Shown: positions 42,003 through 64,000, numbered from the stretch's first letter. The stretch is 64,000 nt of DNA from Bacillota bacterium (GCA_023409955.1 JAEYQQ010000131.1:2853-66852); one strand, 5' to 3'. The notes: a model not told the origin generated them from the sequence alone. Translations and numbers: made by a program.

Positions 42003-42322
42003 GCAGTATGCAGGCAGCGGTTACTGTGGGCATTATTGCACTGACTACGCTATTGATCCGTGCAGCGCCTTTTGTACTGTTTCCCAAAGCACAAAATGCC
42101 CCGCCCTTTATACGGTATCTGGGCAGGGTTCTACCCCGTGCTGTAATGGGGATGCTGGTGGTATATTGTTTTAGAACCTTGCGCTTTGACGTGTATCCTT
42201 ATGGGCTGCCAGAGATGGCAGCCGGTGCTGCTGCGGCTTTGCTTTCTATCGTAAAGCGCAGTGTGATACTGAGCATTGCGGCATCCACTATCATGTATAT
42301 GATAGTGCTGGGTGTCTTATAG
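41999..42322 (+). CDS. azlD: AzlD family small membrane subunit
   Basis: 107 aa, ATGA overlap with azlC stop; LLIRAAPFVLF motif. Confidence 0.75.
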   Translation: MSSMQAAVTVGIIALTTLLIRAAPFVLFPKAQNAPPFIRYLGRVLPRAVMGMLVVYCFRTLRFDVYPYGLPEMAAGAAAALLSIVKRSVILSIAASTIMYMIVLGVL

Positions 42323-44413: not shown

Positions 44414-44603
44414 TCGCACAGCCTCCTCATAATTCGACAGATAACGCAGTGTTTATTGTAGCATAGGCATCGGGCAGGCGCAACCGCCCTACTTTTTATA
44501 CCTGTAAAGCTTACGGAAAAATGTATATCACAAATGACATCATAACGCCCACAGAAGCGGCTACTTAAAAGCATAAGCAATCATGTGTATGCTCAAGGTA
44601 ATT

Positions 44604-51947: not shown

Positions 51948-52913
51948 ATGCTTGTGCTGCTTATTGGTGACATATTGTTTTCTTTGGATATGGCGTGGGG
52001 GTTTGAACAGCTGGGTCACAAAACTACAAGGGCAGACCCCCGGGATGTTACGCAGTGCAAGGAGACTGGTGCCCACCAGGAACCCGATCTAGTCATCACC
52101 ATGGGTTCTCCGTCCTATTTTGTACGTGAGACTTTGGCATATTTGCATGCCAGGCCGTATTCAAAAGCAAAGTATATCCATTGGGATACGGATGGCATTA
52201 CATGGAAGGACATTGAAATGAATCATATTCTGCTGATGAAGCCGGATATGGTATTCACCGTATGCCCGGAAATGCTTGACCTTTTGCGCATACAAGGCAT
52301 ACAAAGCCATCTGCTGCCATATGCATATTGCCCCCAAACGCACCATCCGGGTGCCGTACAGCCGGAGTTTTTCCATGCCATCAGCTTTACCGGAAGTGCC
52401 TATCCTCAAATTGTTGAAGTGCAGGCAGAGCATTACCGCCGCAAGTCACTGAATGTTTTATTCAAGCCGCTTCTCAATAATGGAATACGAATTGACCTGT
52501 ACGGTGATGATCGTCACGGGCAGGTGCTCAAAGCACTGTATGGAACGGATATTCCGGTGGAGTGGATTCACGGACAATGCCCTTATGAGAAGACATGGCA
52601 GATATACAGCGGCAGCAGCATTAATCTGGTTACGCAAAATCATGAGCATACCATCACCAAGCGAACTTTTGAAATTATGGGCTGCGGGGGATTGGCGCTG
52701 AGCTTAGGCAATACCGCTATTCGGGAAGCATTTTCGCCGGGCAGGGACCTTGTGGTATCATCCAGCCCTGAAGAAACGCTGGAGATGGTGAATGAACTGA
52801 TGAGAAACCCTGATAAGTGCACTGCCATACGGGCAAATGCACTGCTTCGTATGGGGGAGCATACCTACCGGCAGCGTGCTGAATATATCATCAGCCGGAT
52901 TTTTGCCGGCTGA
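51948..52913 (+). CDS. CgeB-family (DUF3880 plus GT1-like) protein, paralog 1
   Basis: 321 aa; YIHWDTDG, INLVTQNHEHTITKRTFEIMGCGG, VSSSPEETLEMV, EHTYRQRAEYI. Confidence 0.65.
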   Translation: MLVLLIGDILFSLDMAWGFEQLGHKTTRADPRDVTQCKETGAHQEPDLVITMGSPSYFVRETLAYLHARPYSKAKYIHWDTDGITWKDIEMNHILLMKPDMVFTVCPEMLDLLRIQGIQSHLLPYAYCPQTHHPGAVQPEFFHAISFTGSAYPQIVEVQAEHYRRKSLNVLFKPLLNNGIRIDLYGDDRHGQVLKALYGTDIPVEWIHGQCPYEKTWQIYSGSSINLVTQNHEHTITKRTFEIMGCGGLALSLGNTAIREAFSPGRDLVVSSSPEETLEMVNELMRNPDKCTAIRANALLRMGEHTYRQRAEYIISRIFAG

Positions 52914-52926
52914 TGAGTGGAATGAT

Positions 52927-53922
52927 TTATGCCGGGTATTTTTTCAGCAGATCCAGAATATATCCTGCTCGCTGCTGATAGGTGTGTTCTTTCACGCTTA
53001 GCACCGCATTGTTTCGTACTTCGCGCCACTTATCCATGTTTGTCTTATAGTATTCCACCAGCTCCAGGGTTTGTTCTGGGCTGGAGGATACGGCGATGTC
53101 ACGGCCGGGTACGAACAACTCGCGGATGGCATGATTATCCATTGAAAGGGCAAACCCGCCGGAACCCAATATTTCAAAGGTGCGCTTGGTAATGGTATGC
53201 TCATGGTTTTGTGTGACCAGGTTGATAAAAGCACTGTTATATGCGGCGCAGGTTTTCTCATAAGGAAGATAGTAGTGATACACCATGTTTGGCACATCTT
53301 TACCCATTAGTTGCATAAGCAGCTGCCGGTACCCTGTATCGCCGTAATAATGAATTTGGTATCCGTTTTCCAGCAGCGGCTTTATCAAAACGTTGATGGA
53401 TTTTAACCGAAAGTGGTCAGGGTGGGCCTTTATGATTGTGGAGTAGGAGTTGCCGATGAGATTGATATAAAACTGATCATTGTCCAGGCCTTGCATTGGG
53501 CGGTGAGATAGGGGGCTGTAGGCGTAATGCATCATTTCACAGGGAAAGTTTCGTTTTACTATAAAATCATGCATCTCAGGGCACATGGTCAGCACAAGGT
53601 CAGGCTTAGACAAAGAGATGACATCCATTTCAATACCCTCGCCGCTGGCGGAGCTGAAATATGTGCTGGATATGCCATCGGTATCCCAGTGGATATATCT
53701 CATGGACGACCTGCCGCGCTCACCCAAAGCTTTCAGCGCATTGGGCGCAAGCTCTGTTGGTGCGCCTAGTGTAATCAAGAGGTCCGGTTTCTCATGTGTA
53801 AGGACCATGCGCATTTCTTCTGCTCCAGATGCTGCTATGATGTTGGTTTCATGTCCCAGTGCGGCAAAGCCCCACATCATATCAACGGAGAACAACCTAT
53901 TTCCCCAAATGAGTACTTTCAT
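52927..53922 (-). CDS. CgeB-family protein, paralog 2
   Basis: 331 aa; same blocks (YIHWDTDG, INLVTQNHEHTITKRTFEILGSGG, VSSSPEQTLELV, EHTYQQRAGYI); stops of the two paralogs are 13 nt apart. Confidence 0.65.
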   Translation of the reverse strand: MKVLIWGNRLFSVDMMWGFAALGHETNIIAASGAEEMRMVLTHEKPDLLITLGAPTELAPNALKALGERGRSSMRYIHWDTDGISSTYFSSASGEGIEMDVISLSKPDLVLTMCPEMHDFIVKRNFPCEMMHYAYSPLSHRPMQGLDNDQFYINLIGNSYSTIIKAHPDHFRLKSINVLIKPLLENGYQIHYYGDTGYRQLLMQLMGKDVPNMVYHYYLPYEKTCAAYNSAFINLVTQNHEHTITKRTFEILGSGGFALSMDNHAIRELFVPGRDIAVSSSPEQTLELVEYYKTNMDKWREVRNNAVLSVKEHTYQQRAGYILDLLKKYPA

Positions 53923-54279
53923 ACTATCACCTTTCGTACAGTTCAGGATGCATTCCAGCTACAATCTATGAATGTCAAGAACCGGCGGTTCCGAATACCG
54001 GAATTGGGGAGAGAAGGCAGCAAATATCAGTTCTCATAAGCACTTGTATTTGTGCTTGCTGTGTGACGTGGTTGATAATGCTTATGAAATTATATGGTTA
54101 TAGATAATAATATATTTATGAAAGTACAATAAATATTTGGTTGACATGCCATAAAAGCCGTGATACACTTGGAAAACCATTCGGCGATGAAGGGCATATA
54201 TATCAGGGCTGAATGTGTATGATTGAAAGCAATAAAATCTCCATTTGTTGATAGATTAATGAGAAGGAGAAGGTTATCC

Positions 54280-55143
54280 GTGATCCACATTCTGACGGAC
54301 GGTATATCTGACATCAAGCCGCAGGAAGCATTAAAGATGGAAGTGCAGGTGCTACCGCTGCATATTCACTTTGAAAATGAATACATTGAAGATATTTTAT
54401 CCATTAATGAAGAGGAATTTTATCGGCGGCTGGCAGTGGCAAGTAAGCTGCCCAAAACAAGCCAAGTGACGCCGGAGGCATTTTATGATGCATATGTACA
54501 GGCGTTGGAGCGTAAGGATGAGGTGCTTGTCATCACTGGGTCCAGTGAATTGAGCGGTACATTTCAATCAGCAATGATCGCCAGAGACATGCTTTCCGAA
54601 GAAGACCGGGAGAGGGTTTATCTGGTGGATTCCCAAAGCGCCTCATTAGGAGAGGCAATGCTGGTTTATGAGGCTGTTCGTTTGCGGGAACAGGGTGAGG
54701 AGATAAGAACCATTCAAAAAGCAATTTTAACGCTGATTCCCCACCAGGTTTTGGTGGGTTTTGTTGAGGATTTGAAGTACTTGGTCATGGGCGGCAGGCT
54801 TTCATCCGTTGGTGCCAAGGTGGGCACCATGCTGCGCATTAAGCCTATGCTCCGCCTGAGGGACGGAAAACTGGATATGGCAGGAATTGCCCGGGGTACA
54901 CGCAATGCATATGATTGGTTGCTGCAGCAGCTGAAGCAGACACCGCCTGACCTTGCATATCCCGTGCATATCGCCAGTGCCCATGCTTCGGAGGCTTTGG
55001 AGGAGTTGAAATCCCACCTGATAGATCGAGGTGGGCTGACTGGGATGATTCGCACCATGGGCATTGGGCCGGCGACGGGTACGCATACAGGGCCAGGCTG
55101 CCTGGTAATCAGCTGGATATCCAAAGCTATTAGAAGAGCATAG
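54280..55143 (+). CDS. DegV family fatty-acid-binding protein
   Basis: GTG 54280 six nt after AAGGAGAAGG (track start 54223); VIHILTDGISDI, PKTSQVTPEAF, ITGSSELSGTFQSA, GPGCLVI. Confidence 0.85.
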   Translation: MIHILTDGISDIKPQEALKMEVQVLPLHIHFENEYIEDILSINEEEFYRRLAVASKLPKTSQVTPEAFYDAYVQALERKDEVLVITGSSELSGTFQSAMIARDMLSEEDRERVYLVDSQSASLGEAMLVYEAVRLREQGEEIRTIQKAILTLIPHQVLVGFVEDLKYLVMGGRLSSVGAKVGTMLRIKPMLRLRDGKLDMAGIARGTRNAYDWLLQQLKQTPPDLAYPVHIASAHASEALEELKSHLIDRGGLTGMIRTMGIGPATGTHTGPGCLVISWISKAIRRA

Positions 55144-55309: not shown

Positions 55310-56392
55310 ATGGGACGCTACAAAATATGTGTATACGCCATTTGCAAAAATGAAGAGAAGTTTGTGGACCGTTGGATGGATGCAGTCAGCGAGGCGGATT
55401 TGGTGGTGGTGAGCGATACCGGTTCCACCGACCAAACGGTGAGCAAGCTGCGGTCAAGGGGGGCGCTGGTGTATGAAGATACGATATCCCCCTGGCGTTT
55501 TGATGATGCAAGAAACGCCGCCATGGATCATATCCCAGATGATGTTGATATTTGCGTTTCCAACGACCTGGATGAGATTTTTGAGCCGGGCTGGCGCCGT
55601 AAGCTGGAGGAGGCCTGGCGGCCCAACCATACCCGGGCGCGTTACCTTTTTACCTGGAGCCATAAGCCGGACGGTCAGCCAGATAAGCAATTTCCTATGG
55701 AAAAGATACACCGGCGCAAGGGATTTCGTTGGGTTCATCCTGTGCATGAGGTGCTGGCATACAAAGGACCGGATAAGGAAGAGGTGGTCTTTGTAAAAGG
55801 CATGGTGCTGAACCATTATCCGGACCTGTCCAAGCCCAGGAGTCAGTATCTGCCTCTTTTGGAGCTGTCAGCAAAAGAAAACCCTACGGATGATCGAACC
55901 ATCTTCTGGCTGGGCCGGGAGTATATGTACTATGGGAAGCATGACCAAAGCATAGAAACATTGAAACGGCATTTACAGCTGCCAGGAGCCCTGTGGGATG
56001 TGGAGCGCAGCGCATCCATGCGCTATATAGCCAAATGTTATCAAGCGAAAAATGATATAACAGAGGCAAAACGCTGGCTTTACAGGGCGATTGCCGAGTG
56101 TTCGGTGATACGTGAGCCTTATCATGATATGGCAAGGCTTGGATATATATTAAATGATTGGCCGCTGACATTTATGATGGTAGAGAAGGGGCTTGCAGTC
56201 ACGATGCAGATCGGAGGTTATCTTTTGGAGCCGTCAAGCTGGGGCTACAGCCTGTATGATCTTGGGGCCATTGCATGTTATCAGCTGGGTCTTTACAAAA
56301 AAGCTCGTGATTATGCAAGAAAAGCCTATGATCTGGAGCCTGCGGATCAGAGGCTGAAAAACAATTTGATGCTGATAGAAGCGAAATTATGA
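55310..56392 (+). CDS. glycosyltransferase (GT-A N-terminal domain) with C-terminal TPR-like repeats, paralog 1
   Basis: KICVYAICKNEEKFVDRWMDAVSEADLVVVSDTGSTDQTV, DDARN, SNDLDE; helical repeat C-terminus. Confidence 0.7.
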   Translation: MGRYKICVYAICKNEEKFVDRWMDAVSEADLVVVSDTGSTDQTVSKLRSRGALVYEDTISPWRFDDARNAAMDHIPDDVDICVSNDLDEIFEPGWRRKLEEAWRPNHTRARYLFTWSHKPDGQPDKQFPMEKIHRRKGFRWVHPVHEVLAYKGPDKEEVVFVKGMVLNHYPDLSKPRSQYLPLLELSAKENPTDDRTIFWLGREYMYYGKHDQSIETLKRHLQLPGALWDVERSASMRYIAKCYQAKNDITEAKRWLYRAIAECSVIREPYHDMARLGYILNDWPLTFMMVEKGLAVTMQIGGYLLEPSSWGYSLYDLGAIACYQLGLYKKARDYARKAYDLEPADQRLKNNLMLIEAKL

Positions 56393-56411: not shown

Positions 56412-57512
56412 ATGGCTGGATATAAAATATGTGTATATGCCATTTGCAAAAACGAGGCAATGTTTGTAGACCGGTGGATGGATTCCATGAGCGAGGCTGA
56501 CCTTGTTGTGGTAACGGATACCGGCTCCACTGACGGCACGGTGGAAAAGCTGAGGGCACGGGGGGCGAAGGTTTTTGTCCATCCGGTGAAGCCCTGGCGT
56601 TTTGATGTTGCCAGAAATGTATCTCTTGACAATCTGCCCCCGGATACGGACATTTGTGTTTGCACCGATTTGGATGAGCTGTTTGAAAAGGGTTGGCGGG
56701 CCAAGCTGGAAGCGGCCTGGCTCCCGGATGCGAAGCAGGCGAAATATATTTACAACTGGAGCCTGAAAGAGGATGGGACGCCTTATGTGCAAATGCATTA
56801 TGCCAAAGTCCACGCACGTCAGGGGTTTGTATGGCAGGACCCCGTACACGAATGGTTGAGCTACCGGGGAACGGAGCCTAAAGTCACAGTATTTGTAGAA
56901 GGTATGGTGCTCAATCATTATCCGGATGATGCAAAATCCCGTGGGTCCTATCTTCCGCTTTTGGAGCTGGGGGTAGAGGAAAGCCCGTTTAGTGACCGGC
57001 TGAGGTATTATCTGGGCCGAGAATATATGTACAAGAGCGAGTGGGAGAAGTGCATTGATACCTTAAAGGCGTATTTGAAGCTTCCCACAGCCACATGGAA
57101 TGAAGAGCGGAGTGCTGCCATGCGCTGGATTGCAAAATCCTATCATCAAATGAACAATCAACCTGAGGCGTATGCATGGTACTACCGGGCTATTGCAGAA
57201 GCGCCTTATATGCGGGATGCGTATGTGGAATGCGCCAAAATGGCCTATCAGCTTTCAGATTGGCCAACCGCATTTTTTATGGCGGAGGAAGCGCTGAAAA
57301 TCCGGGAACGTTCTAAAACCTATGTGAACATGGGTTATTCCTGGGATCATACACCAAATGACCTGGCAGCCATTGCCTGCTTCCAGCTGGGAATGTATGA
57401 GCGGGCGGCAGACCATGCCCAGGCAGCATTATTGATGACCCCGGAAGACGAAAGGCTGAAAATCAACCTAAAGCTGATACGGGAAAAGATCAATGGCCTA
57501 GCAAGCATATAG
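56412..57512 (+). CDS. glycosyltransferase (GT-A N-terminal domain) with C-terminal TPR-like repeats, paralog 2
   Basis: KICVYAICKNEAMFVDRWMDSMSEADLVVVTDTGSTDGTV, CTDLDE; tandem to paralog 1. Confidence 0.7.
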   Translation: MAGYKICVYAICKNEAMFVDRWMDSMSEADLVVVTDTGSTDGTVEKLRARGAKVFVHPVKPWRFDVARNVSLDNLPPDTDICVCTDLDELFEKGWRAKLEAAWLPDAKQAKYIYNWSLKEDGTPYVQMHYAKVHARQGFVWQDPVHEWLSYRGTEPKVTVFVEGMVLNHYPDDAKSRGSYLPLLELGVEESPFSDRLRYYLGREYMYKSEWEKCIDTLKAYLKLPTATWNEERSAAMRWIAKSYHQMNNQPEAYAWYYRAIAEAPYMRDAYVECAKMAYQLSDWPTAFFMAEEALKIRERSKTYVNMGYSWDHTPNDLAAIACFQLGMYERAADHAQAALLMTPEDERLKINLKLIREKINGLASI

Positions 57513-57743: not shown

Positions 57744-57772
57744 TTGACAATTTTATGGCAGAATGGTAATCT
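57744..57772 (+). promoter_or_regulatory. sigma-70-type promoter for ABC cassette leader
   Basis: TTGACA, 17 nt, TGgTAATCT. Confidence 0.55.
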
Positions 57773-57829
57773 GATTCCGCTGGTGAACATCACTGCGCCC
57801 TAAATTGAAGGAAAGGAGGCACGAACTCA

Positions 57830-57931
57830 ATGACAATCAATCGAGCAAACAAACTGGCAATCGGTTTTGGAATTCGACAGATGGGCAGAGATCGTGTCTC
57901 TGCAGCATATAACTTCAAATTGGGCGCCTAG
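57830..57931 (+). CDS. 33-codon leader ORF (not in ORF track)
   Basis: AAAGGAGG 10 nt before ATG; MTINRANKLAIGFGIRQMGRDRVSAAYNFKLGA; lies between promoter and leader terminator. Confidence 0.4.
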   Translation: MTINRANKLAIGFGIRQMGRDRVSAAYNFKLGA

Positions 57932-58040
57932 TGCTAAGATACGTGGAATGACGAAGCACTTGGTGCATAGTCTGACCACGCCATGATTGTCAGCGAAATA
58001 GCGGGATACCTGTGATACATGGGTATATGCGAGCTTTTTC

Positions 58041-58073
58041 ACGGCGGGGTTGTATAACCACCGCTGTTTTTTT
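58041..58073 (+). terminator. intrinsic terminator inside leader (attenuator) upstream of ABC genes
   Basis: ACGGCGGGGTT-gtat-AACC(a)CCGCTGT, about 11 bp with one bulge, then TTTTTTT; ABC RBS follows 30 nt later. Confidence 0.65.
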
Positions 58074-58115
58074 GCGCAAAAAAGATCTAGGCAGACCATG
58101 TAAGGAGAAAACGCC

Positions 58116-60377
58116 ATGAAAACCCACATTCCCGAGTACATGCTATCGGCCTTTCAAAGCCAGGGCATTGATGCCCAAAAGCTGATCTACGCCATTCATG
58201 CTGATATGGCGCTGGATGGCAGCCATGCCGACACGTATGCGGCCATTGACAAAGAGCATCTGTATATCCTCTATGGTTTAGAGAAAGTGGTGAAGGTTAC
58301 CGGGGCCCGGCGCATTGTGTCGGCCTATGAGCTTCACAGCATGGATACCTTTGCGCTCAAAGACCTGGGCGAACTAAAATGCGAGCGGCTTTTATCCACC
58401 GGCCGGATGTATAGTGAAAAGGATGGCGATGCCAAAATCCTCATGCTTTTCTCCGTGGGATATTTGTCCTATGTGGAGCGGCTGATCAAGGCTGTTCAAA
58501 ACATTCGCAATGGAATTGACCCATTGACTGAAATCCTTGTGGATGAAGAGCTTTTCTGCAACAAGTGCGGCACGCGGTATCCAGAGCCGGAGCGCAAGCT
58601 TTGCCCCAAGTGCATGGACAAAAAGTCCATTTCCATGCGGCTTATGGGCTTTTTCAAAGATTACTGGCGCAAGGTACTGGTGATTTTCCTGGTCATGCTG
58701 GGGAGCACGGTTTTCTCCATCGCAACGCCTTATGTCAGTACCAAGCTGCTCTTTGATGATGTTTTGGTGGAGGGCGGCCAGTATTATGGCCTGGTATTGG
58801 GCATTGTAGGCATGATCCTGCTGGTGAGGGTGCTGGGCGTTAGTATGAATATACTGTACTCCTATGTTCTGTCCCGTACTGTGCCATGGATCGTATACGA
58901 TTTGAAGGTGAAAATCTTTGAGGCGATGCAGCGGCTGTCTGTTGGCTTCTATACCTCCAAACGCACCGGCGCGCTGATGAACCGTATCAATAAGGATGCC
59001 ACCAACATTTATTGGTTCTTTGTGGACGGCCTTCCCTATGTGGTGATGAATGTACTTACCTTTTCGGGCGTTGTCACCCTTATGTTCACCCTCAACACCA
59101 CCCTGGCGGTGATCTCCCTGGTGTTTATCCCCGTTGCGATTTTGCTGTTTCGTATATTGTGGGGCGTTTTCCGGCGCTTCCACCACAAAAACTGGGTGTA
59201 TGGATCGCAGCTCAACGCCATGGTATCCGACTCTGTCAACGGCCAACGGGTAATCAAGGCCTTTGCCCGGGAGGATGACGAGACATCCCGGTTTATGGAT
59301 GTGGGCAACAAACAAGCGGGTGTTGATGCAGCGTCCTTAAATGTTGGATTTACGGCCTTCCCGCTGATATATCTGTTCATGTTTGCAAGTCAGGTGGCGA
59401 TAACCATTGTGGGCGGCATGATGGTGCTAAGGCAGGAGATCAGCGTCGGTATGCTGCTTACCTTTATTGCATACCTGCAAATGCTTCACGGGCCGCTGGA
59501 GTTCATGTCCTGGGTATCCAACTGGTGGGCCCGTTGCGTAGATGCTGCCCAACGTGTATTTGAGATCATCGATGCCAAGCCGGATGTGGCGGAGCCGGAG
59601 AATCCCATTGCGCTGGATCACTTTGCCGGCCGGATTGATGTTAGCAACGTATGGTTTGAATATGACCCGGCAACACCTATCCTAAAGGGCATTGACCTGC
59701 ATGTGGAAGCTGGCAAGATGCTGGGAATTGTAGGCAAGACCGGTGCGGGAAAATCTACCCTGGCGAACCTGATTGCCCGGTTGTACGATGTCAACCAGGG
59801 CAGTGTAAAAATCGATGGCGTGGATGTTCGCCAGCTTTCGCTGAAGATGCTGCGCGGCAGTATCGGTATCGTGTCACAGGATATTTACCTGTTTATTGGC
59901 ACCATTGCAGATAACATCCGTTATGCCAACCCCGGCGCAAGCATTGAAGATGTGATCAGAGCTGCCAAGGCTGCTTCGGCCCATGATTTTATTATGAACC
60001 TGCCGGATGGCTATGAAACCAGGGTGGGCGCAGGCGGCCAGGATCTATCCGGTGGTGAGAAGCAGCGGCTGTCCATTGCCCGTACCATTATTCAAAATCC
60101 CAAGATTCTTATACTGGATGAAGCTACGGCGGCCATGGATACAGAGACCGAGGGCAATATCCAGCTGGCGCTGGCCAAGCTGCAAAAGGGCAGAACCACC
60201 ATTTCCATTGCACATCGCCTGTCCACCTTGCGGGATGCCGATAGTCTGGCAGTGATCAGCGAGGGGAAGGTTGTGGAAACCGGTACCCATGCAGAGCTTA
60301 TTGCCAAGAAGGGCGAGTATTACAAACTTTACAACATCCAGATGGAGGGGCTGAAAGTCATTTCCATGGAAGCGTAA
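58116..60377 (+). CDS. ABC exporter half-transporter (TMD-NBD) with about 170-aa N-terminal soluble domain ending in a zinc ribbon
   Basis: 753 aa, AAGGAG 8 nt before ATG; CNKCG-x11-CPKC at 58557..58613; six TM helices; GKTGAGKST, LSGGEKQR, ILILDEAT. Confidence 0.9.
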   Translation: MKTHIPEYMLSAFQSQGIDAQKLIYAIHADMALDGSHADTYAAIDKEHLYILYGLEKVVKVTGARRIVSAYELHSMDTFALKDLGELKCERLLSTGRMYSEKDGDAKILMLFSVGYLSYVERLIKAVQNIRNGIDPLTEILVDEELFCNKCGTRYPEPERKLCPKCMDKKSISMRLMGFFKDYWRKVLVIFLVMLGSTVFSIATPYVSTKLLFDDVLVEGGQYYGLVLGIVGMILLVRVLGVSMNILYSYVLSRTVPWIVYDLKVKIFEAMQRLSVGFYTSKRTGALMNRINKDATNIYWFFVDGLPYVVMNVLTFSGVVTLMFTLNTTLAVISLVFIPVAILLFRILWGVFRRFHHKNWVYGSQLNAMVSDSVNGQRVIKAFAREDDETSRFMDVGNKQAGVDAASLNVGFTAFPLIYLFMFASQVAITIVGGMMVLRQEISVGMLLTFIAYLQMLHGPLEFMSWVSNWWARCVDAAQRVFEIIDAKPDVAEPENPIALDHFAGRIDVSNVWFEYDPATPILKGIDLHVEAGKMLGIVGKTGAGKSTLANLIARLYDVNQGSVKIDGVDVRQLSLKMLRGSIGIVSQDIYLFIGTIADNIRYANPGASIEDVIRAAKAASAHDFIMNLPDGYETRVGAGGQDLSGGEKQRLSIARTIIQNPKILILDEATAAMDTETEGNIQLALAKLQKGRTTISIAHRLSTLRDADSLAVISEGKVVETGTHAELIAKKGEYYKLYNIQMEGLKVISMEA

Positions 60378-60439
60378 TAACGGCTTCCATCCGCCAAATC
60401 CGCCCTGTTATCTGCTAAAAAAATGTGGAGGATCAACGT

Positions 60440-60985
60440 ATGCAAACCGTTGCAGCAAACAGCATGCAAAGTCTATCAGATGCCATTGACATTGGGTTTC
60501 TGGAGGTAAGTCAGGCTAAGTTCTTTAAAACTGAAGGCGGTTTTACGGGGCTTCATTACAAAGGGACGGAGTACAAGCGCATTTGCCTTCGGCGGGCGCT
60601 GCCCCTTGGTGATCCCAGCGGCTTTATCTCCATTGCAGATCATGAGAACAAGGAGATCGCCATCATCCGCAGCCTTGCCGATTTTTCGGGCGAGCAGCTT
60701 CAAATTGTGCTGGATGAGCTGGATAGCCGGTATTATTGCCCCCAGATCCATGAGATCAAGTCCATCAAGGATAAGCTGGGCTATGTGTACATGGAAATGG
60801 TTATCGGAGGCAAGGATGGTAAAAGTGAAAGGACTTGTGCCATCAAGGATGTGAACAGGAATATCCGCATGCTGAAAAATGATAAGCTAATCATTTTTGA
60901 TGTGGATGGAAACCGGTATATCATCCCCTCACTGGAGGGTCTGGAAAAGAAGAGCCTGAAACGTTTGGAGCCATTCCTTTTCTAA
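60440..60985 (+). CDS. small soluble protein, DUF1854-like (from memory)
   Basis: ATG 60440 seven nt after GGAGGA (track start 60425); 181 aa; ...RRALPLGDPSGFISI.D..NKEIAIIRSL..., IIFDVDGNRYIIPSLE. Confidence 0.55.
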   Translation: MQTVAANSMQSLSDAIDIGFLEVSQAKFFKTEGGFTGLHYKGTEYKRICLRRALPLGDPSGFISIADHENKEIAIIRSLADFSGEQLQIVLDELDSRYYCPQIHEIKSIKDKLGYVYMEMVIGGKDGKSERTCAIKDVNRNIRMLKNDKLIIFDVDGNRYIIPSLEGLEKKSLKRLEPFLF

Positions 60986-61051
60986 GCCAGGCCAAGCTGC
61001 TGGAAAAGGTTGAAGCTGTGCCCTCTTTCGACCAGGTTAGGAGTTGATTTT

Positions 61052-63205
61052 TTGAAGGTTTATACCTTTGCCTATGATTTGGGGCTTGATATGAAACCGG
61101 GCTCAGGGGAGCTCCGCTTTGACGAGCAGGGGAGTATTGCCCTTTGGTGGGAAGGAAACCAGTTGGATGCGTTTTCTGCTGAAGGGGTCAAGGAAGCTGC
61201 TGTCATTGCCGGAGTGGGCTGCGGTCAGTTATTTGTCACCATGGCGGATGATACAGAGAAGGTGCTTTGCCGCTTTACCATGTCCGGGCTCAAGGACGCC
61301 GGGGAATTTTGCAAGATCGTCAACTACTATGTACAGACCAAAATCCCCCTGATCCCGGATGAAAAGGAAGTGCATGTTTGCGAAACCTGCGGCCGGCCGC
61401 TGGTCGAGGGCATGAAGATATGCCTTTTCTGCTACAACAAGCGCGGCTTGCTAAAACGTACGGGAAAGCTGATGAAGCCTCATGCCAAGAAAATGATATC
61501 CTCTCAGCTGTTCATGACGCTTTCCTCTGTGCTGTATCTGTTGGTACCGCTGTTTAATAAGATACTCATCGACAATTACCTGCAGCCGCTTAAGGGCACC
61601 TTGGGTGATATACTTGCCCTGGGGCTGGGCATGCTGATGGCCAGGGTGCTGGGAGAAGTGATCTTTATTCTCAGCGCCAGGGTCTATAATCGCTCTACTG
61701 TGGCATTCTCCAATGAACTTCGTACCATGACCTATGACAAGGTGCAAAAGCTCTCCATGACATCCCTTGCCAAGCGTACCCCCGGTGATCTCATCCGCCG
61801 GATCATGGAGGATACAAACACCATCAAGGATTTCATGACCGACGCAGGACGCTGGGCAGTGGAGCAGAGCATCACCTTTGTGGTGGTAATGACGGTTCTG
61901 CTGTTAACCAATTGGAAGATGGCCTTGCTGGTCTTCCTGCCTGTGCCTATCGTTATGGTGGTACTGTCCAGGTTCTGGAAGTATATCCACGTACGGTATG
62001 AGCGGCAGTGGCGGAAAAATTCCAGGTGCCAGTCCATCCTCCATGACATCATACGAGGCATCCGTACCGTAAAGGCCTTTGGCAATGAGGATATCGAGAT
62101 CGCCAAGTTCTCCAAAGCCACAAAGGAGTTGGCGCAGGTATCCTCCGATAATGAGGCCATGTGGTCGATTCTGTTCCCCAGCATCACCTTCTTCACAGGC
62201 ATTGGTGAGTTCCTGGTGCTATACTTTGGCGGCCAGGCTGTGCTTGGCGGAACCATGAGCATTGGTACGCTGACCCTGTTTGTGATGTATATCAACTATA
62301 TCTATGCACCCCTTCGCTGGTTGGTATCTTTCCCGCGGTGGCTGGCGGATGCCATGACCTCCATGGTGAAGGTCTTTGAGGTGCTGGATGAGGAGCCGGA
62401 TATTGCGGAAAAGGATACCGTAAACAATGTGCCCATCTCCGGCAGTGTTGCCTTCGATGGTGTAACCTTTGGTTACAAATCCTACGAGCCGGTTTTGAAG
62501 GATGTAAGCCTTACCATTAACCCCGGTGAGATGGTGGGCATTGTAGGCCGCTCGGGAACGGGCAAATCCACCCTGATTAACATGCTCATGCGACTGTATG
62601 ACCCCAATACCGGTAAGATTTCCATCAACGGTGCAGATTTGCGGGATATGTCCCCCCGGCACCTGCACGAGAACATTGGCGTTGTATTCCAGGATTCCTT
62701 CCTGTTTGCTGGCACCATATTCGACAACGTAGCTTATGGTAAGCCTGATGCCACACCCGAAGAAGTCATCGCAGCATGTAAGGCTGCCAATGCCCATGAC
62801 TTCATCATGCAAACAGCGGACGGCTATAACACCCTGCTTGGTGAAGGCGGACATACCATTTCCGGCGGTGAGCGCCAGCGGTTGGCCATTGCACGGGCGA
62901 TTATTAAAAACCCGGATGTATTGATTCTGGATGAAGCCACCAGCTCCCTGGATGTGGAAACCGAATCCTCCATTCAACAAAGCCTTAACAACTTAACCAA
63001 AGGCCGCACAACAGTGGCCATTGCCCATAGGCTTTCTACCCTGCGCAGCGCAAACCATCTTCTTGTGCTGGATAAAGGACGGGTAGCTGAGGTGGGTACC
63101 CATGTGGAGCTGCTGAAGAAAAAGGGCATCTATTACAAGCTGGTAATGGCTCAGCGGCAAACCAGTAAGCTTTCCAAGGATGAAAACATCAGTGCCGCTG
63201 GTTAA
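61052..63205 (+). CDS. ABC exporter half-transporter (TMD-NBD) with about 150-aa N-terminal soluble domain ending in a zinc ribbon
   Basis: TTG 61052 eight nt after AGGAG (ATG 61091 alternative; track 61010); CETCG-x10-CLFC; GRSGTGKST, ISGGERQR, VLILDEAT. Confidence 0.9.
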   Translation: MKVYTFAYDLGLDMKPGSGELRFDEQGSIALWWEGNQLDAFSAEGVKEAAVIAGVGCGQLFVTMADDTEKVLCRFTMSGLKDAGEFCKIVNYYVQTKIPLIPDEKEVHVCETCGRPLVEGMKICLFCYNKRGLLKRTGKLMKPHAKKMISSQLFMTLSSVLYLLVPLFNKILIDNYLQPLKGTLGDILALGLGMLMARVLGEVIFILSARVYNRSTVAFSNELRTMTYDKVQKLSMTSLAKRTPGDLIRRIMEDTNTIKDFMTDAGRWAVEQSITFVVVMTVLLLTNWKMALLVFLPVPIVMVVLSRFWKYIHVRYERQWRKNSRCQSILHDIIRGIRTVKAFGNEDIEIAKFSKATKELAQVSSDNEAMWSILFPSITFFTGIGEFLVLYFGGQAVLGGTMSIGTLTLFVMYINYIYAPLRWLVSFPRWLADAMTSMVKVFEVLDEEPDIAEKDTVNNVPISGSVAFDGVTFGYKSYEPVLKDVSLTINPGEMVGIVGRSGTGKSTLINMLMRLYDPNTGKISINGADLRDMSPRHLHENIGVVFQDSFLFAGTIFDNVAYGKPDATPEEVIAACKAANAHDFIMQTADGYNTLLGEGGHTISGGERQRLAIARAIIKNPDVLILDEATSSLDVETESSIQQSLNNLTKGRTTVAIAHRLSTLRSANHLLVLDKGRVAEVGTHVELLKKKGIYYKLVMAQRQTSKLSKDENISAAG

Positions 63206-63560: not shown

Positions 63561-64000
63561 ATGTCGTATGGTTATTTTGACGATGCCAATAGGGAATATG
63601 TCATCTTAAGGCCGGATACGCCTTACCCCTGGATTAACTATCTGGGCAGTGAGGACTTTTTTTCGTTGCTATCCAATACATCCGGCGGGTATAGCTTTTA
63701 TAAGGATGCCAGGCTGCTTCGCCTGACCCGGTATCGCTACAACAACACGCCTGCCGATATGGGCGGCCACTACTACTACATCAAGGATGGCGAAAACGTT
63801 TGGAATCCTGGCTGGATGCCGGTTATGACAACCCTTGACCAGTATGAATGCCGTCATGGTCTTGGATATACCATTATCAAATCTGAAAAGAATGGCTTGA
63901 AAGCCAGGCAGACGGTACTGGTACCCAGGGGGAAAACTGCAGAAGTGACCCAATTGGTACTTGAGAACACAACAGACAGGGATAAGCAAGTCAGCCTGTT
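63561..64000 (+). CDS. GH94 cellobiose/chitobiose phosphorylase, 5' part (runs off window)
   Basis: open frame not in track (no stop before the window ends); GGAGG 10 nt before ATG; [62 protein letters not shown]. Confidence 0.85.

What the first reader, a model, noticed from the sequence alone, without database searches (positions are those of the whole stretch)
58116..63205. ABC-DUF1854-like-ABC cassette in which both half-transporters carry an extra N-terminal soluble domain ending in a zinc ribbon
Seen: 58116..60377 (753 aa) and 61052..63205 (about 717 aa) are both complete TMD+NBD exporter halves. They carry Walker A GKTGAGKST / GRSGTGKST, signature LSGGEKQR / ISGGERQR and Walker B ILILDEAT / VLILDEAT. 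In both, TM1 starts only near residue 175 / 160. Sequences that look like ordinary exporter N-termini (MRLMGFFKDYWRKVLVIF..., MKPHAKKMISSQLFM...) are preceded by a soluble domain, in frame and without a stop. That domain ends in CNKCGTRYPEPERKLCPKC (58557..58613) or CETCGRPLVEGMKICLFC, i.e. CxxC-X10-11-CxxC. A 181-aa soluble protein (60440..60985) sits between the two genes; I recognise it only as resembling the uncharacterised DUF1854 family (memory, not searched). Inference: the two extensions and the small protein form a cytoplasmic regulatory or substrate-delivery module on a heterodimeric exporter. I know of no characterised exporter with this layout. This is my best candidate in the window for an undescribed system.
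Basis: partly seen in the sequence, partly recalled or inferred. Interest (0 to 1): 0.7.

Follow-up and report, generated by a model that had tools for sequence, protein, structure and literature searches.

The report
ABC exporter pair with PH–zinc-ribbon domains
This is a real, widely conserved three-gene unit of gut and anaerobe Clostridia: two ABC exporter halves, each starting with an extra PH-like domain plus zinc ribbon, flanking a small DUF1854 partner protein; the family is already named in databases but has never been studied biochemically.

Summary
58116-60377 (753 aa) and 61052-63205 (717 aa) are complete ABCB-type half-transporters with canonical ATP-site motifs, and 60440-60985 is a true DUF1854 protein (PF08909, E 3.5e-30).

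Both N-terminal extensions are homologous: a PH-like domain followed by a four-Cys ribbon. They are translated (dN/dS 0.06-0.14), and the four Cys are the only invariant columns across divergent relatives.

The triad is not a one-off. It recurs in 70 Bacillota species genomes found through DUF1854, and in 33 of 33 informative metagenome loci found through the ribbon motif alone. In some relatives DUF1854 is fused behind the NBD.

The layout is only partly undescribed. NCBIfam names the nearest families 'cyanophycin metabolism-associated', and Price et al. proposed DUF1854 as a transporter subunit. Here both cut-offs are missed and no cyanophycin synthetase lies nearby.

No neighbour is conserved, so the substrate is unknown.

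I also found a conserved leader upstream: promoter, 33-codon ORF, four-segment attenuator and terminator. This suggests inducible expression like B. subtilis bmrCD.

Verdict: a new variant of a known kind, of moderate interest.

The parts
57744..57772 (+). Promoter-like site: TTGACA (57744-57749), 17-nt spacer, TGnTAATCT extended -10 (-10 hexamer 57767-57772)
   Evidence: Read. TTGACA and TGGTAA are invariant in 11 related leaders (alignment A3). The generic scan did not list it.
57830..57931 (+). Leader ORF, 33 codons (MTINRANKLAIGFGIRQMGRDRVSAAYNFKLGA), preceded by a GAAAGGAGG RBS
   Evidence: Intact in 11 of 11 related leaders. All indels are multiples of 3. The C-terminus (S/N)R(D/N)RVSAxNNFIxGA-stop is conserved, and the stop codon sits a fixed 111-112 nt before the terminator. 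A 34-codon equivalent exists in L014, and shorter, unrelated ORFs in L018 and L023.
57932..58073 (+). Leader RNA with four-segment attenuator: seg1 ACGTGG 57941-57946, seg2 ACCACGCC 57975-57982, seg3 GGCGGGGT 58043-58050, seg4 + U-run 58056-58073 (terminator hairpin 58041-58067, U-run to 58073)
   Evidence: Nearly invariant in 11 leaders. Alternative folds are predicted in all 11. Covariance model R1 finds four more copies, each immediately upstream of an ABC1 gene. In 15 leaders, pairing 1:2 + 3:4 is 96.6% and pairing 2:3 is 98.1%, against 33-59% in slid controls. No Rfam family matches.
58116..60377 (+). ABC1, 753 aa: PH-like domain + Zn ribbon + type IV (ABCB-like) TMD + NBD
   Evidence: PF00664 residues 188-461 and PF00005 residues 523-672. 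Best NCBIfam hit is NF052233 at 528 bits, cut-off 880. More than 120 full-length orthologues at 64-100% identity.
58116..58508 (+). ABC1 PH-like domain (residues ~1-131: short helix, 7 strands, C-terminal helix 114-131)
   Evidence: AlphaFold2 model, pLDDT 84.6. Nearly all top Foldseek PDB hits are PH domains (probability ~1.0, TM 0.35-0.53). No Pfam or NCBIfam family matches.
58557..58613 (+). ABC1 four-Cys ribbon CNKCGTRYPEPERKLCPKC (residues 148-166), about 10 residues before the elbow helix/TM1
   Evidence: Conserved in all complete orthologues. The four Cys are the only invariant columns in A6. Pfam zinc-ribbon models score below threshold (DZR 17.3 bits against 27.3).
60440..60985 (+). 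DUF1854 protein, 181 aa, soluble, two beta-rich halves each ending in a helix
   Evidence: PF08909, E 3.5e-30. NF052234 scores 61.5 bits, cut-off 150. AlphaFold2 pLDDT 83.8. No fold relative in the PDB. Fused to the C-terminus of the ABC in P0294, P0331, P0366 and L091.
61052..63205 (+). ABC2, 717 aa (TTG start): shorter PH-like domain + Zn ribbon + TMD + NBD; paralogue of ABC1 (35% identity, collinear from the extension onward)
   Evidence: PF00664 residues 153-421 and PF00005 residues 482-631. BLASTP against ABC1 gives E 8e-136, aligned from residue 33. N-terminal profile against the PH-Zn profile: hhalign probability 99%, E 4.5e-18.
61379..61432 (+). ABC2 four-Cys ribbon CETCGRPLVEGMKICLFC (residues 110-127)
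   Evidence: Conserved as CxxCGRPxxExxxxCxFC in all complete ABC2 orthologues. C110, C113, C124 and C127 are invariant in A7.

Best explanation
The region is a self-contained three-gene operon encoding one ABC export machine.

Composition:
- ABC1 and ABC2 are paralogous ABCB-type (type IV fold) half-transporters. They most likely pair as a heterodimer with two catalytically competent ATP sites.
- Each half begins with a cytoplasmic PH-like beta-sandwich. A four-Cys zinc ribbon follows, about 10 residues before the elbow helix/TM1. This places two such modules at the membrane-cytoplasm interface beside the transmembrane domains.
- DUF1854, encoded between the two halves, is a soluble two-lobed beta-rich protein. 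It acts as an obligate third subunit on the cytoplasmic side, near the C-terminal end of ABC1's NBD, where it is covalently fused in some relatives.

Family:
- This is the duplicated, heterodimeric Bacillota branch of the family whose beta-proteobacterial members sit next to cyanophycin-synthetase-like genes.
- Here, and in more than 100 other Bacillota lineages, that link is absent and the unit travels alone.

Expression:
- Expression is conditional. The operon has its own promoter and a leader with a translated 33-codon ORF.
- The leader ORF's stop lies 12 nt before segment 1 of a four-segment terminator/antiterminator.
- A ribosome lingering at the end of the leader ORF would therefore favour read-through, as in bmrB-bmrCD.

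Inferred working model:
- The two PH-Zn modules plus DUF1854 form a cytoplasmic collar.
- The collar recognises or gates a cytoplasmic substrate or signal and couples it to ATP-driven export.
- I judge the unit most likely to be a stress- or xenobiotic-inducible exporter of a specific, still unknown compound rather than a cyanophycin pump.

Shown:
- gene content, domain folds and conservation
- co-occurrence and natural fusions
- purifying selection on the extensions
- leader anatomy

Inferred:
- heterodimer formation
- DUF1854 docking site
- metal binding
- direction of transport and substrate
- the signal read by the leader
For: Architecture:
- ORFs and motifs. Pfam and NCBIfam assignments.
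- ABC1 and ABC2 are collinear paralogues, including the extension.
- PH-like fold of the extension.
- The four Cys are the only invariant columns.
- The extensions are translated and constrained.

Module status:
- The triad, with both ribbons, is present in the 70 species-level loci found through DUF1854.
- 33 of 33 informative loci found only through the ribbon DNA motif carry the full triad.
- The PH-Zn domain is rare: 231 clusters in 1.84 billion representatives. Every full-length hit but one (P0349, 4927 aa, unexamined) is an ABC transporter carrying the ribbon.
- Three representative clusters and L091 fuse DUF1854 behind the NBD.
- In the human-gut lineage the ABC1 stop overlaps the DUF1854 start by 4 nt (L144, 7788/7785).

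Self-containment and lack of a cyanophycin link:
- No conserved neighbour.
- No cphA among the ten largest window ORFs scanned, nor among the ten 850-947-aa non-ABC ORFs of the 70 loci scanned.

Inducible or efflux flavour:
- Leader ORF plus attenuator.
- Precedent: bmrCD regulation (PMC4191407, title and abstract).
- The human-gut lineage sits in an MMPL-TetR-[triad]-ABC-ABC cluster.
- GNAT, SAM-methyltransferase and APH-kinase genes are inserted inside the operon in termite-gut lineages.

Family precedent for DUF1854 as a transporter subunit: Price et al..
Against:
- The PH assignment has low TM-scores (0.35-0.53), and the ribbon part of the model is only moderately confident (pLDDT ~65).
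- The efflux or stress reading rests on lineage-specific contexts, each seen in a minority of lineages.
- The high sequence conservation of all three proteins across orders fits a specific housekeeping substrate better than a promiscuous drug pump.
- The attenuator has essentially no covariation. Its helices are conserved, not compensated.
- Thermodynamic folding alone does not show that ribosome masking flips the switch: the full-length masked RNA still folds the terminator.
- The leader element was found only in lineages with 73% or higher ABC1 identity.
- The nearest named relatives point to cyanophycin-type polymer metabolism, which cannot be excluded genome-wide, because only the contig was available.
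Confidence: 0.6

Rival explanations
1. It is what the nearest NCBIfam names say: an exporter tied to cyanophycin, or to a related Asp/Arg poly-amino-acid. The PH-Zn and DUF1854 parts would recognise the polymer or its dipeptides, and the synthetase would simply be encoded elsewhere in the genome.
For: - The best NCBIfam hits for all three proteins are NF052233 and NF052234.
- DUF1854 and its ABC partner are cofit with cphA/cphA' in two beta-proteobacteria (Price et al.).
- A cphA-cphA-ABC cluster has been noted in sludge taxa (PMC10687191).
Against: - Scores are far below the curated cut-offs: 528 and 508 against 880, and 61.5 against 150.
- No cphA-like gene among the ten largest ORFs of the 64-kb window that were scanned.
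- None of the ten 850-947-aa non-ABC ORFs in the 70 related loci that were scanned is cphA-like.
- None among 115 immediate neighbours from distinct lineages.
- Only 3 of 23 PH-Zn fragments touch the N-terminal part of NF052233, and weakly.
- Sharon et al. 2023 state that no cyanophycin export process is known.
Confidence: 0.12
2. The small upstream ORF is not a regulatory leader but the cargo. It would be a 33-aa peptide (bacteriocin- or pheromone-like) exported by the triad. The PH-Zn domains would act as cargo receptors, as the C39 and C39-like domains do in PCAT and HlyB exporters. The terminator would only set the precursor-to-transporter ratio, as in lantibiotic operons.
For: - A conserved, translated-looking small ORF lies directly upstream, with a terminator between it and the transporter genes.
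- N-terminal accessory domains on ABC exporters are typical of peptide exporters (established knowledge of PCAT1 and HlyB).
Against: - The ORF sequence is conserved only in the closest clade. It is replaced by unrelated 16-19-codon ORFs in L018 and L023, while the RNA segments persist.
- The triad exists in more than 100 lineages without this leader.
- There is no double-glycine leader motif in the peptide (read directly) and no Peptidase_C39 domain.
- The 111-nt near-invariant untranslated spacer with mutually exclusive pairings fits an attenuator.
Confidence: 0.07
3. The cassette exports a glycan or glycolipid made by the neighbouring sugar enzymes, acting as an MsbA- or ChvA-like flippase. 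The neighbours are the CgeB-like GTs, two GT-TPR-like proteins upstream, and GH94 + GT2 downstream.
For: - Neighbours in the window and its identical contigs are glycan-related.
- The GT-TPR pair recurs in 10 related loci and GH94 in 8.
- A GH94 gene also sits next to the triad in an unrelated human-gut lineage.
- MsbA and glucan-exporter models are strong secondary hits.
Against: - The triad has its own promoter, leader and terminator after a ~600-nt gap.
- These neighbours vanish outside the closest clade.
- An 811-aa GH94 is the size of a catabolic cellobiose phosphorylase (my own knowledge).
- The MsbA and ChvA similarity is the generic ABCB core, and all scores are below cut-off.
Confidence: 0.08
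4. The extensions are annotation artefacts: translation really starts at the internal Met just before TM1, and the upstream in-frame sequence is non-coding.
For: In-frame Met residues lie just before TM1 in both genes (M174/M177 in ABC1; MKPHAKKM in ABC2).
Against: - dN/dS is 0.06-0.14 with dS ~1 across the extensions.
- RBSs sit at the annotated starts.
- Protein-level conservation runs from residue 1 in 70 species.
- The Cys residues are invariant in relatives at 21-33% identity.
- The domain gives a confident fold prediction.
Confidence: 0.01

Closest known systems
NCBIfam NF052233 / NF052234 'cyanophycin metabolism-associated ABC transporter' and 'DUF1854 family protein' (the beta-proteobacterial cphA-cphA'-ABC-DUF1854 clusters; Price et al. 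2016/2018 fitness study)
   Same: - Same Pfam content: PF00664 + PF00005, plus PF08909.
- Both are the best NCBIfam hits for the window proteins.
- The ABC model is 766 positions long, so it too has a long N-terminus.
- DUF1854 was proposed as a subunit of the transporter.
   Different: - Scores are well below the equivalog cut-offs.
- The system described there has one ABC gene; here there are two paralogous genes flanking DUF1854.
- No cyanophycin synthetase is linked in the window or in about 125 Bacillota lineages.
- Homology of the N-terminal domain to that of the proteobacterial proteins is only weakly supported.
Firmicute heterodimeric type IV ABC exporters: BmrCD (B. subtilis), TM287/288, EfrCD, TmrAB
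   Same: - Same core fold and half-transporter pair in one operon. TM288 is the best bacterial PDB hit (E 4e-115).
- BmrCD is controlled by a leader peptide and ribosome-mediated transcription attenuation (PMC4191407). The leader found here has the same logic.
   Different: - Those proteins are ~575-620 aa, with no N-terminal soluble domain and no DUF1854 partner.
- From my own knowledge, not tested here, most of them have one degenerate ATP site. Both sites here carry consensus motifs.
ABC exporters with N-terminal cytoplasmic accessory domains: PCAT1 (C39 peptidase), HlyB (C39-like domain), IrtAB (siderophore-interaction domain)
   Same: A soluble domain sits in front of TM1 of a type IV exporter. 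In those systems it recruits or processes the cargo (established knowledge). This is the best analogy for what the PH-Zn module could do.
   Different: - The fold is unrelated: PH-like plus zinc ribbon, with no C39 or FAD-binding domain.
- Both halves carry it.
- There is an additional separate subunit, DUF1854.
C-terminal regulatory or recognition domains on ABC ATPases: MalK/MetN/ModC regulatory domains, Wzt carbohydrate-binding domain
   Same: Beta-rich modules are attached behind the NBD and sense substrate or cargo and tune ATPase activity (established knowledge). DUF1854 is beta-rich and is fused behind the NBD in some relatives.
   Different: - No sequence or fold match was detected.
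- Those systems are importers or type V exporters.
- DUF1854 is usually a separate polypeptide.

Membership tests
ABCB-type (type IV fold) ABC exporter half-transporter | One six-helix ABC_membrane (PF00664) domain followed by one ABC_tran (PF00005) NBD on the same chain | tested here: met
   PF00664 scores 127.5 and 141.1 bits; PF00005 scores 115.1 and 127.8 bits; full-length alignments to ABCB1, TM288, Sav1866, TmrAB and MsbA.
ABCB-type (type IV fold) ABC exporter half-transporter | Consensus Walker A, ABC signature, Walker B D-E and H-loop His (catalytically competent site) | tested here: met
   Read: GKTGAGKST/LSGGEKQR/ILILDEAT/IAHR in ABC1 and GRSGTGKST/ISGGERQR/VLILDEAT/IAHR in ABC2. The Walker A, signature and Walker B motifs also hold in nearly all of the 27 divergent relatives (the signature regex failed in P0395 and picked a non-consensus match in P0369). 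ATPase activity was not tested.
DUF1854 (Pfam PF08909) | Score above the Pfam gathering threshold over the full model | tested here: met
   105 bits against 26.8, covering model positions 1-130 of 130.
NF052233 cyanophycin metabolism-associated ABC transporter (equivalog) | Whole-protein score at or above the curated cut-off of 880 bits | tested here: not met
   528.4 bits (ABC1) and 507.6 bits (ABC2). Ten divergent relatives score 453-553 bits.
NF052234 cyanophycin metabolism-associated DUF1854 protein (equivalog) | Whole-protein score at or above the curated cut-off of 150 bits | tested here: not met
   61.5 bits.
Cyanophycin-associated ABC/DUF1854 system | Genomic linkage to cyanophycin synthetase (cphA / cphA') | tested here: not met
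   No such gene was found among the ten largest ORFs of the 64-kb window that were scanned, among the ten 850-947-aa non-ABC ORFs of the 70 loci that were scanned, or among 115 flanking genes. Presence elsewhere in the genome could not be tested.
PH-like (pleckstrin-homology superfold) domain | Seven-stranded antiparallel beta-sandwich closed by a C-terminal alpha-helix | tested here: met
   the model has strands at 25-113 followed by helix 114-131, pLDDT 84.6; nearly all top 50 PDB matches are PH or PTB domains at probability ~1.0, but with TM only 0.35-0.53. This is fold-level similarity only: no Pfam bPH family matches.
Zinc ribbon | Two CxxC knuckles 10-11 residues apart, invariant Cys, metal bound | tested here: inconclusive
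   The pattern is present and the Cys are invariant. Pfam ribbon models score below threshold (DZR 17.3 bits against 27.3). The ribbon region of the model has pLDDT ~65. Metal binding is not testable here.
Peptidase-containing ABC transporters (PCAT) / T1SS HlyB type | N-terminal C39 peptidase or C39-like domain | tested here: not met
   No Peptidase_C39 hit appears. The HlyB, bacteriocin_ABC and NHLM models align only from the TMD onward.
Leader-peptide (ribosome-mediated) transcription attenuator, bmrB-bmrCD type | Short translated leader ORF with an RBS, upstream of an intrinsic terminator, with a mutually exclusive antiterminator pairing | tested here: met
   The ORF is intact in 12 of 12 close leaders (11, plus L014). 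Terminator-state pairing is 96.6% and antiterminator pairing 98.1%.
Leader-peptide (ribosome-mediated) transcription attenuator, bmrB-bmrCD type | Read-through induced by ribosome stalling (e.g. by translation inhibitors) | not testable with these tools
   This needs reporter fusions, Term-seq or Ribo-seq.

The most novel reading that the evidence does not exclude
The PH-Zn/DUF1854 triad would define a distinct class of ABC exporter. A dedicated three-part cytoplasmic receptor (two PH-zinc-ribbon modules plus DUF1854) would select a macromolecular or peptidic cargo and hand it to a fully active heterodimeric pump. This would be functionally analogous to PCAT and T1SS cargo recruitment, but built from unrelated domains. 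It would be switched on by a nascent-peptide-sensing attenuator of a type not in Rfam.
Probability: 0.2. Interest if true: 0.75.

Novelty: new variant of a known kind. Interest (0 to 1): 0.5.

Why it matters
ABC exporters are among the best-studied membrane machines, yet this branch has had no structural or biochemical work. It is conserved across many Clostridia, including abundant human-gut and termite-gut lineages. It carries two accessory elements of unknown role: a PH-like domain with a zinc ribbon on each half, and an obligate DUF1854 subunit.

This study leaves the system as a well-defined target:
- the module boundaries are now clear;
- natural fusions indicate how the parts assemble;
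- a candidate on/off switch is identified.

Working out what the cytoplasmic module binds would have two pay-offs:
- It would reveal the substrate.
- For the proteobacterial cousins, it would test whether a cyanophycin-type polymer is exported at all. The cyanophycin field currently regards that process as unknown (PMC9974463).

Tried and rejected
1. Searching the N-terminal 180 aa with the word-index search returned only fragments. It was replaced by a full-length search and the exhaustive HMMER search.
2. PDB sequence searches with the extension (single sequence and profile) and with DUF1854 gave only trivial ribbon hits or nothing.
3. The DUF1854 fold search gave no credible match. hhalign of DUF1854 against either PH-Zn profile, and of its two halves against each other, was negative. 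So the ideas 'DUF1854 is another PH domain' and 'DUF1854 is an internal duplication' are not supported.
4. tblastn of DUF1854 against PLSDB plasmids, done to find an annotated proteobacterial locus, gave no match.
It was replaced by a back-translated ribbon DNA pattern.
6. Apparent exceptions to the triad (L093, L155, L160, L161, L147, L103, L158) turned out to be artefacts of my greedy ORF picking. Long antisense ORFs were masking real genes.
7. A hint of peptidase neighbours (M20/M42) dissolved into one family's synteny block plus unrelated enzymes.
8. Rfam search of the leader gave nothing.
9. RNAalifold found only one compensatory pair, so no covariation claim is made.
10. The 'ABC exporter + zinc ribbon' literature hit (PMC6588880) was irrelevant.

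Full report

Yes. The three ORFs are at the stated coordinates:
- ABC1, 58116-60377, 753 aa
- the small protein, 60440-60985, 181 aa
- ABC2, 61052-63205, 717 aa from a TTG start with an AGGAG RBS

Gene calls on identical metagenome contigs give the same three lengths.

Pfam finds ABC_membrane + ABC_tran in both, and PF08909 (DUF1854) in the small protein at 105 bits.

Solved homologues align only from residue ~171 of ABC1 onward. The N-terminal ~170 residues of ABC1 and ~130-150 residues of ABC2 are therefore extra. The two CxxC-X10-11-CxxC motifs lie at 58557-58613 and 61379-61432.

**2. Are the extensions real protein?**

Yes.
- Each annotated start has an RBS.
- Orthologues in 70 species-level genomes align from residue 1 and keep both ribbons.
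- Between the window and relatives with saturating synonymous divergence (dS ~0.9-1.5), dN/dS of the extensions is 0.06-0.14. This is about the same as the transporter core at 0.04-0.10.

**3. What are the extensions?**

*Fold of the ABC1 extension.* With an alignment of orthologues, AlphaFold2 gives a confident model (pLDDT 84.6). It has a short helix, seven beta-strands and a long C-terminal helix (residues 114-131), followed by a less confident ribbon. Foldseek against the PDB returns almost only PH and PTB domains (BRAG2, TBC1D23, CARMIL, RhoGEF PH domains). Probability is ~1.0, but TM-scores are modest at 0.35-0.53. No Pfam or NCBIfam domain model covers the region, and no PDB sequence does.

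*ABC2 extension.* It is a shorter homologue of the same module: profile-profile probability 99%, E 4.5e-18 over 130 columns. The full-length ABC1/ABC2 alignment is collinear from the extension onward. The two halves are therefore paralogues that inherited the module, not two independent fusions.

*Conservation in the wider family.* Among 23 relatives only 21-33% identical to the window's domain, the four cysteines are the only invariant columns. That is what a structural metal site looks like. Zinc itself is inferred.

**4. How common is it, and do the parts belong together?**

An exhaustive HMMER search of 1.84 billion representative proteins with the domain profile finds only 231 clusters. 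Every full-length hit but one is a 740-820-aa ABC transporter carrying the ribbon. The exception is P0349 (4927 aa, nine partial stretches, no ribbon, not examined). Three clusters of 935-972 aa carry DUF1854 fused behind the NBD.

I tested co-occurrence from two independent directions:
- **Through DUF1854.** A scan of one genome per GTDB species gave 70 loci, all from Bacillota (Oscillospiraceae, Defluviitaleaceae, Caldicoprobacterales and others). Wherever the contig is complete, the order is ABC1-DUF1854-ABC2 with both ribbons.
- **Through the ribbon.** I back-translated the ribbon of divergent members into a DNA pattern and scanned the metagenome collection. This gave 120 loci in 54 lineages. 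Of 33 loci with enough flank to judge, all 33 carry the full triad. The apparent exceptions were long antisense ORFs hiding real genes in my ORF picking.

Locus L091 again shows an ABC1-DUF1854 fusion. In the human-gut lineage the ABC1 stop overlaps the DUF1854 start.

The three genes are therefore one module, and DUF1854 very probably sits at the cytoplasmic end of ABC1.

**5. DUF1854 itself**

The model (pLDDT 83.8) shows two beta-rich halves, each ending in a helix. It has no credible structural relative in the PDB: best E 0.04, TM 0.37 or below. It is not detectably related to the PH-Zn module, and it shows no significant internal repeat. Its fold is effectively unclassified.

**6. Relation to what is known**

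The layout is not wholly undescribed.
- NCBIfam has NF052233, 'cyanophycin metabolism-associated ABC transporter'. Its profile is 766 positions long, so it too has a long N-terminus. It also has NF052234, 'cyanophycin metabolism-associated DUF1854 family protein'. These are the best hits for the window proteins.
[quoted passage not shown] Their basis was cofitness with cphA/cphA' and an ABC transporter in Acidovorax and Cupriavidus. They also noted the fusions.
- A cphA-cphA-ABC cluster was noticed in activated-sludge taxa.

Even for those relatives, however, nothing is established. Sharon et al. [quoted passage not shown]

The window's proteins fail the membership tests for the cyanophycin-linked equivalogs:
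- ABC scores are 528 and 508 bits against a cut-off of 880. DUF1854 scores 61.5 bits against 150. Ten divergent relatives score 453-553 bits.
- No cyanophycin synthetase was found among the ten largest ORFs of the 64-kb window that I scanned.
- None of the ten 850-947-aa non-ABC ORFs of the 70 loci that I scanned is one.
- None appears among 115 immediate neighbours from distinct lineages.

Whether the proteobacterial N-terminus is the same PH-Zn module is only weakly supported. Only 3 of 23 fragments hit NF052233, with best E 0.0017.

**7. Context and function**

Outside the triad nothing is conserved.
- In the DUF1854-derived set, the best recurring neighbours are the GT-TPR pair (10 of 64 loci) and GH94 (8 of 64). 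Both are confined to the window's close relatives.
- In the ribbon-derived set, no neighbour cluster spans more than a few of the 54 lineages.
- A batch Pfam scan of 115 flanking genes gave 139 families, none in more than 5 proteins. A peptidase hint dissolved into one family's synteny block.

What does recur, lineage by lineage, are signs of conditional, efflux-type expression:
- The abundant human-gut lineage has MMPL, a 665-aa protein, TetR, the triad, and then a second conventional ABC exporter pair.
- Termite-gut lineages have GNAT acetyltransferases, SAM methyltransferases, an APH-family kinase and a MazF toxin inserted inside the operon.
- ECF sigma factors and Rrf2 regulators flank a few others.

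**8.

The ~600-nt gap upstream of ABC1 is organised:
- a TTGACA-17-TGnTAATCT promoter at 57744-57772
- a GAAAGGAGG RBS
- a 33-codon ORF at 57830-57931
- ~110 nt of nearly invariant RNA
- a strong intrinsic terminator at 58041-58073
- then the ABC1 RBS

*The leader ORF.* In 11 related genomes the ORF is intact and all its indels are multiples of three. Its C-terminus (S/N)R(D/N)RVSAxNNFIxGA-stop is conserved, and the stop-to-terminator distance is fixed at 111-112 nt.

*The RNA.* It contains four segments:
- segment 1, ACGUGG, 12 nt after the stop codon
- segment 2, ACCACGCC
- segment 3, GGCGGGGU
- segment 4, the terminator's 3' arm plus a U-run

Pairings 1:2 and 3:4 (termination) and pairing 2:3 (read-through) are mutually exclusive. 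Both states appear in folding of all 11 leaders. Across 15 leaders they are 96.6% and 98.1% paired, against 33-59% for slid controls.

*Distribution.* A covariance model built from the 11 leaders finds four more copies (L014, L018, L023, L021; E 4e-10 to 2e-3). Each is on the sense strand and ends 17-72 nt before an ABC1 start. There are none in the more distant ribbon-derived loci. The distant copies keep a small upstream ORF but not its sequence. This favours a regulatory leader over an exported peptide.

*Caveats.* There is almost no covariation. Thermodynamics alone does not show what flips the switch: the full-length masked RNA still folds the terminator. Rfam has no match.

The closest precedent is ribosome-mediated attenuation of the heterodimeric exporter bmrCD by the bmrB leader in B. 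subtilis (PMC4191407).

**9. Most likely mechanism**

*Shown:*
- a three-gene module with its own promoter and leader
- two paralogous type IV half-transporters with consensus ATP sites
- two homologous PH-like + four-Cys modules tethered ~10 residues before TM1
- an obligate DUF1854 partner that is sometimes fused behind the NBD

*Inferred:*
- ABC1 and ABC2 form a heterodimer.
- The two PH-Zn modules sit at the membrane-cytoplasm interface beside the TMDs.
- DUF1854 docks near ABC1's NBD.
- Together they form a cytoplasmic collar that recognises or gates a substrate or signal and couples it to ATP-driven export.
- A ribosome dwelling at the end of the leader ORF masks segment 1 and allows read-through.

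I rate the architecture and module claims as very likely. I rate the reading 'inducible exporter of a specific unknown compound, not a cyanophycin pump' as the best available but only moderately likely. Overall confidence is 0.6.

Rivals:
- cyanophycin-type polymer export, 0.12
- glycan or glycolipid export with the neighbouring GT and GH94 genes, 0.08
- the leader peptide as cargo, 0.07
- annotation artefact, 0.01

**10. Verdict**

It is also less novel than claimed, since the DUF1854-ABC partnership and the family names already exist.

What appears new:
- the fold assignment of the N-terminal module (PH-like + zinc ribbon)
- its presence on both halves, with strict three-way co-occurrence
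- the heterodimeric, cyanophycin-independent Bacillota branch
- the leader-peptide attenuator

I class it as a new variant of a known kind, with interest 0.5.

Noticed in passing
window 57744-58115: A conserved leader lies upstream of ABC1. It comprises a promoter, a 33-codon ORF with a strong RBS, ~110 nt of near-invariant RNA forming a four-segment terminator/antiterminator, and an intrinsic terminator. There is no Rfam match. A covariance model finds further copies only directly upstream of ABC1 orthologues (L014, L018, L021, L023). This is a candidate new cis-regulatory leader.
   Followed up: yes
window 55310-56392 and 56412-57512 (+): Two tandem paralogous ~360-aa proteins have a GT2-like N-terminus (YKICVYAICKNE...) and faint TPR signal, but no Pfam family at E<=1e-5. 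The pair is conserved immediately upstream of the triad in 10 close relatives only.
   Followed up: partly
window 51948-52913 (+) and 52927-53922 (-): A convergently oriented pair of CgeB-like Glyco_trans_1_2 proteins sits next to an epimerase and a DegV protein (54223-55143). This looks like a spore- or surface-glycosylation neighbourhood unrelated to the ABC operon.
   Followed up: no
window 63562-64000 (+), continued in L001 13122-15557: A GH94 phosphorylase (811 aa, the size of a cellobiose phosphorylase) followed by a GT2 lies downstream of ABC2. A GH94 gene is also adjacent to the triad in a distant human-gut lineage (L112 8657-11095). This may be coincidence or old synteny; no functional link was shown.
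   Followed up: partly
L015, L017, L019, L044, L049, L055, L057, L058, L066 (between triad genes): In termite-gut Oscillospiraceae and Defluviitaleaceae, small genes are inserted inside the operon: several GNAT acetyltransferases, SAM methyltransferases, an APH-family kinase and a MazF toxin.
   Followed up: partly
L144 606-14014 (also L112, L122 and many human-gut contigs): A very common human-gut lineage embeds the triad in a cluster of MMPL/RND-like protein, 665-aa protein, TetR regulator, the triad, and a second conventional ABC exporter pair (574 + 577 aa). There, the ABC1 stop overlaps the DUF1854 start.
   Followed up: partly
P0294, P0331, P0366 (WP_066712443.1, Clostridium sp. Marseille-P299); L091 1-2900: Natural single-chain forms exist with the order PH-Zn-TMD-NBD-DUF1854 (935-972 aa). 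They would be useful for structure work, and one comes from a cultured strain.
   Followed up: partly
window 58392-59315 (-), 62219-62980 (-); L103 4949-7717 (+): Long antisense ORFs run inside the ABC genes: up to 307 aa in the window and 922 aa in L103. They have no family hits and are almost certainly spurious. In related loci they masked real genes in naive ORF picking.
   Followed up: yes
window 42317-44419 (-): A 700-aa ORF with no Pfam family at E<=1e-5.
   Followed up: no
L015, L020, L027 (~90-110 nt upstream of ABC1): Termite-gut Oscillospiraceae share a different conserved hairpin + U-run (UCGYGGCAnnACC...GCCGCGA) upstream of ABC1. A separate leader/terminator type may therefore exist for the same operon.
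   Followed up: no
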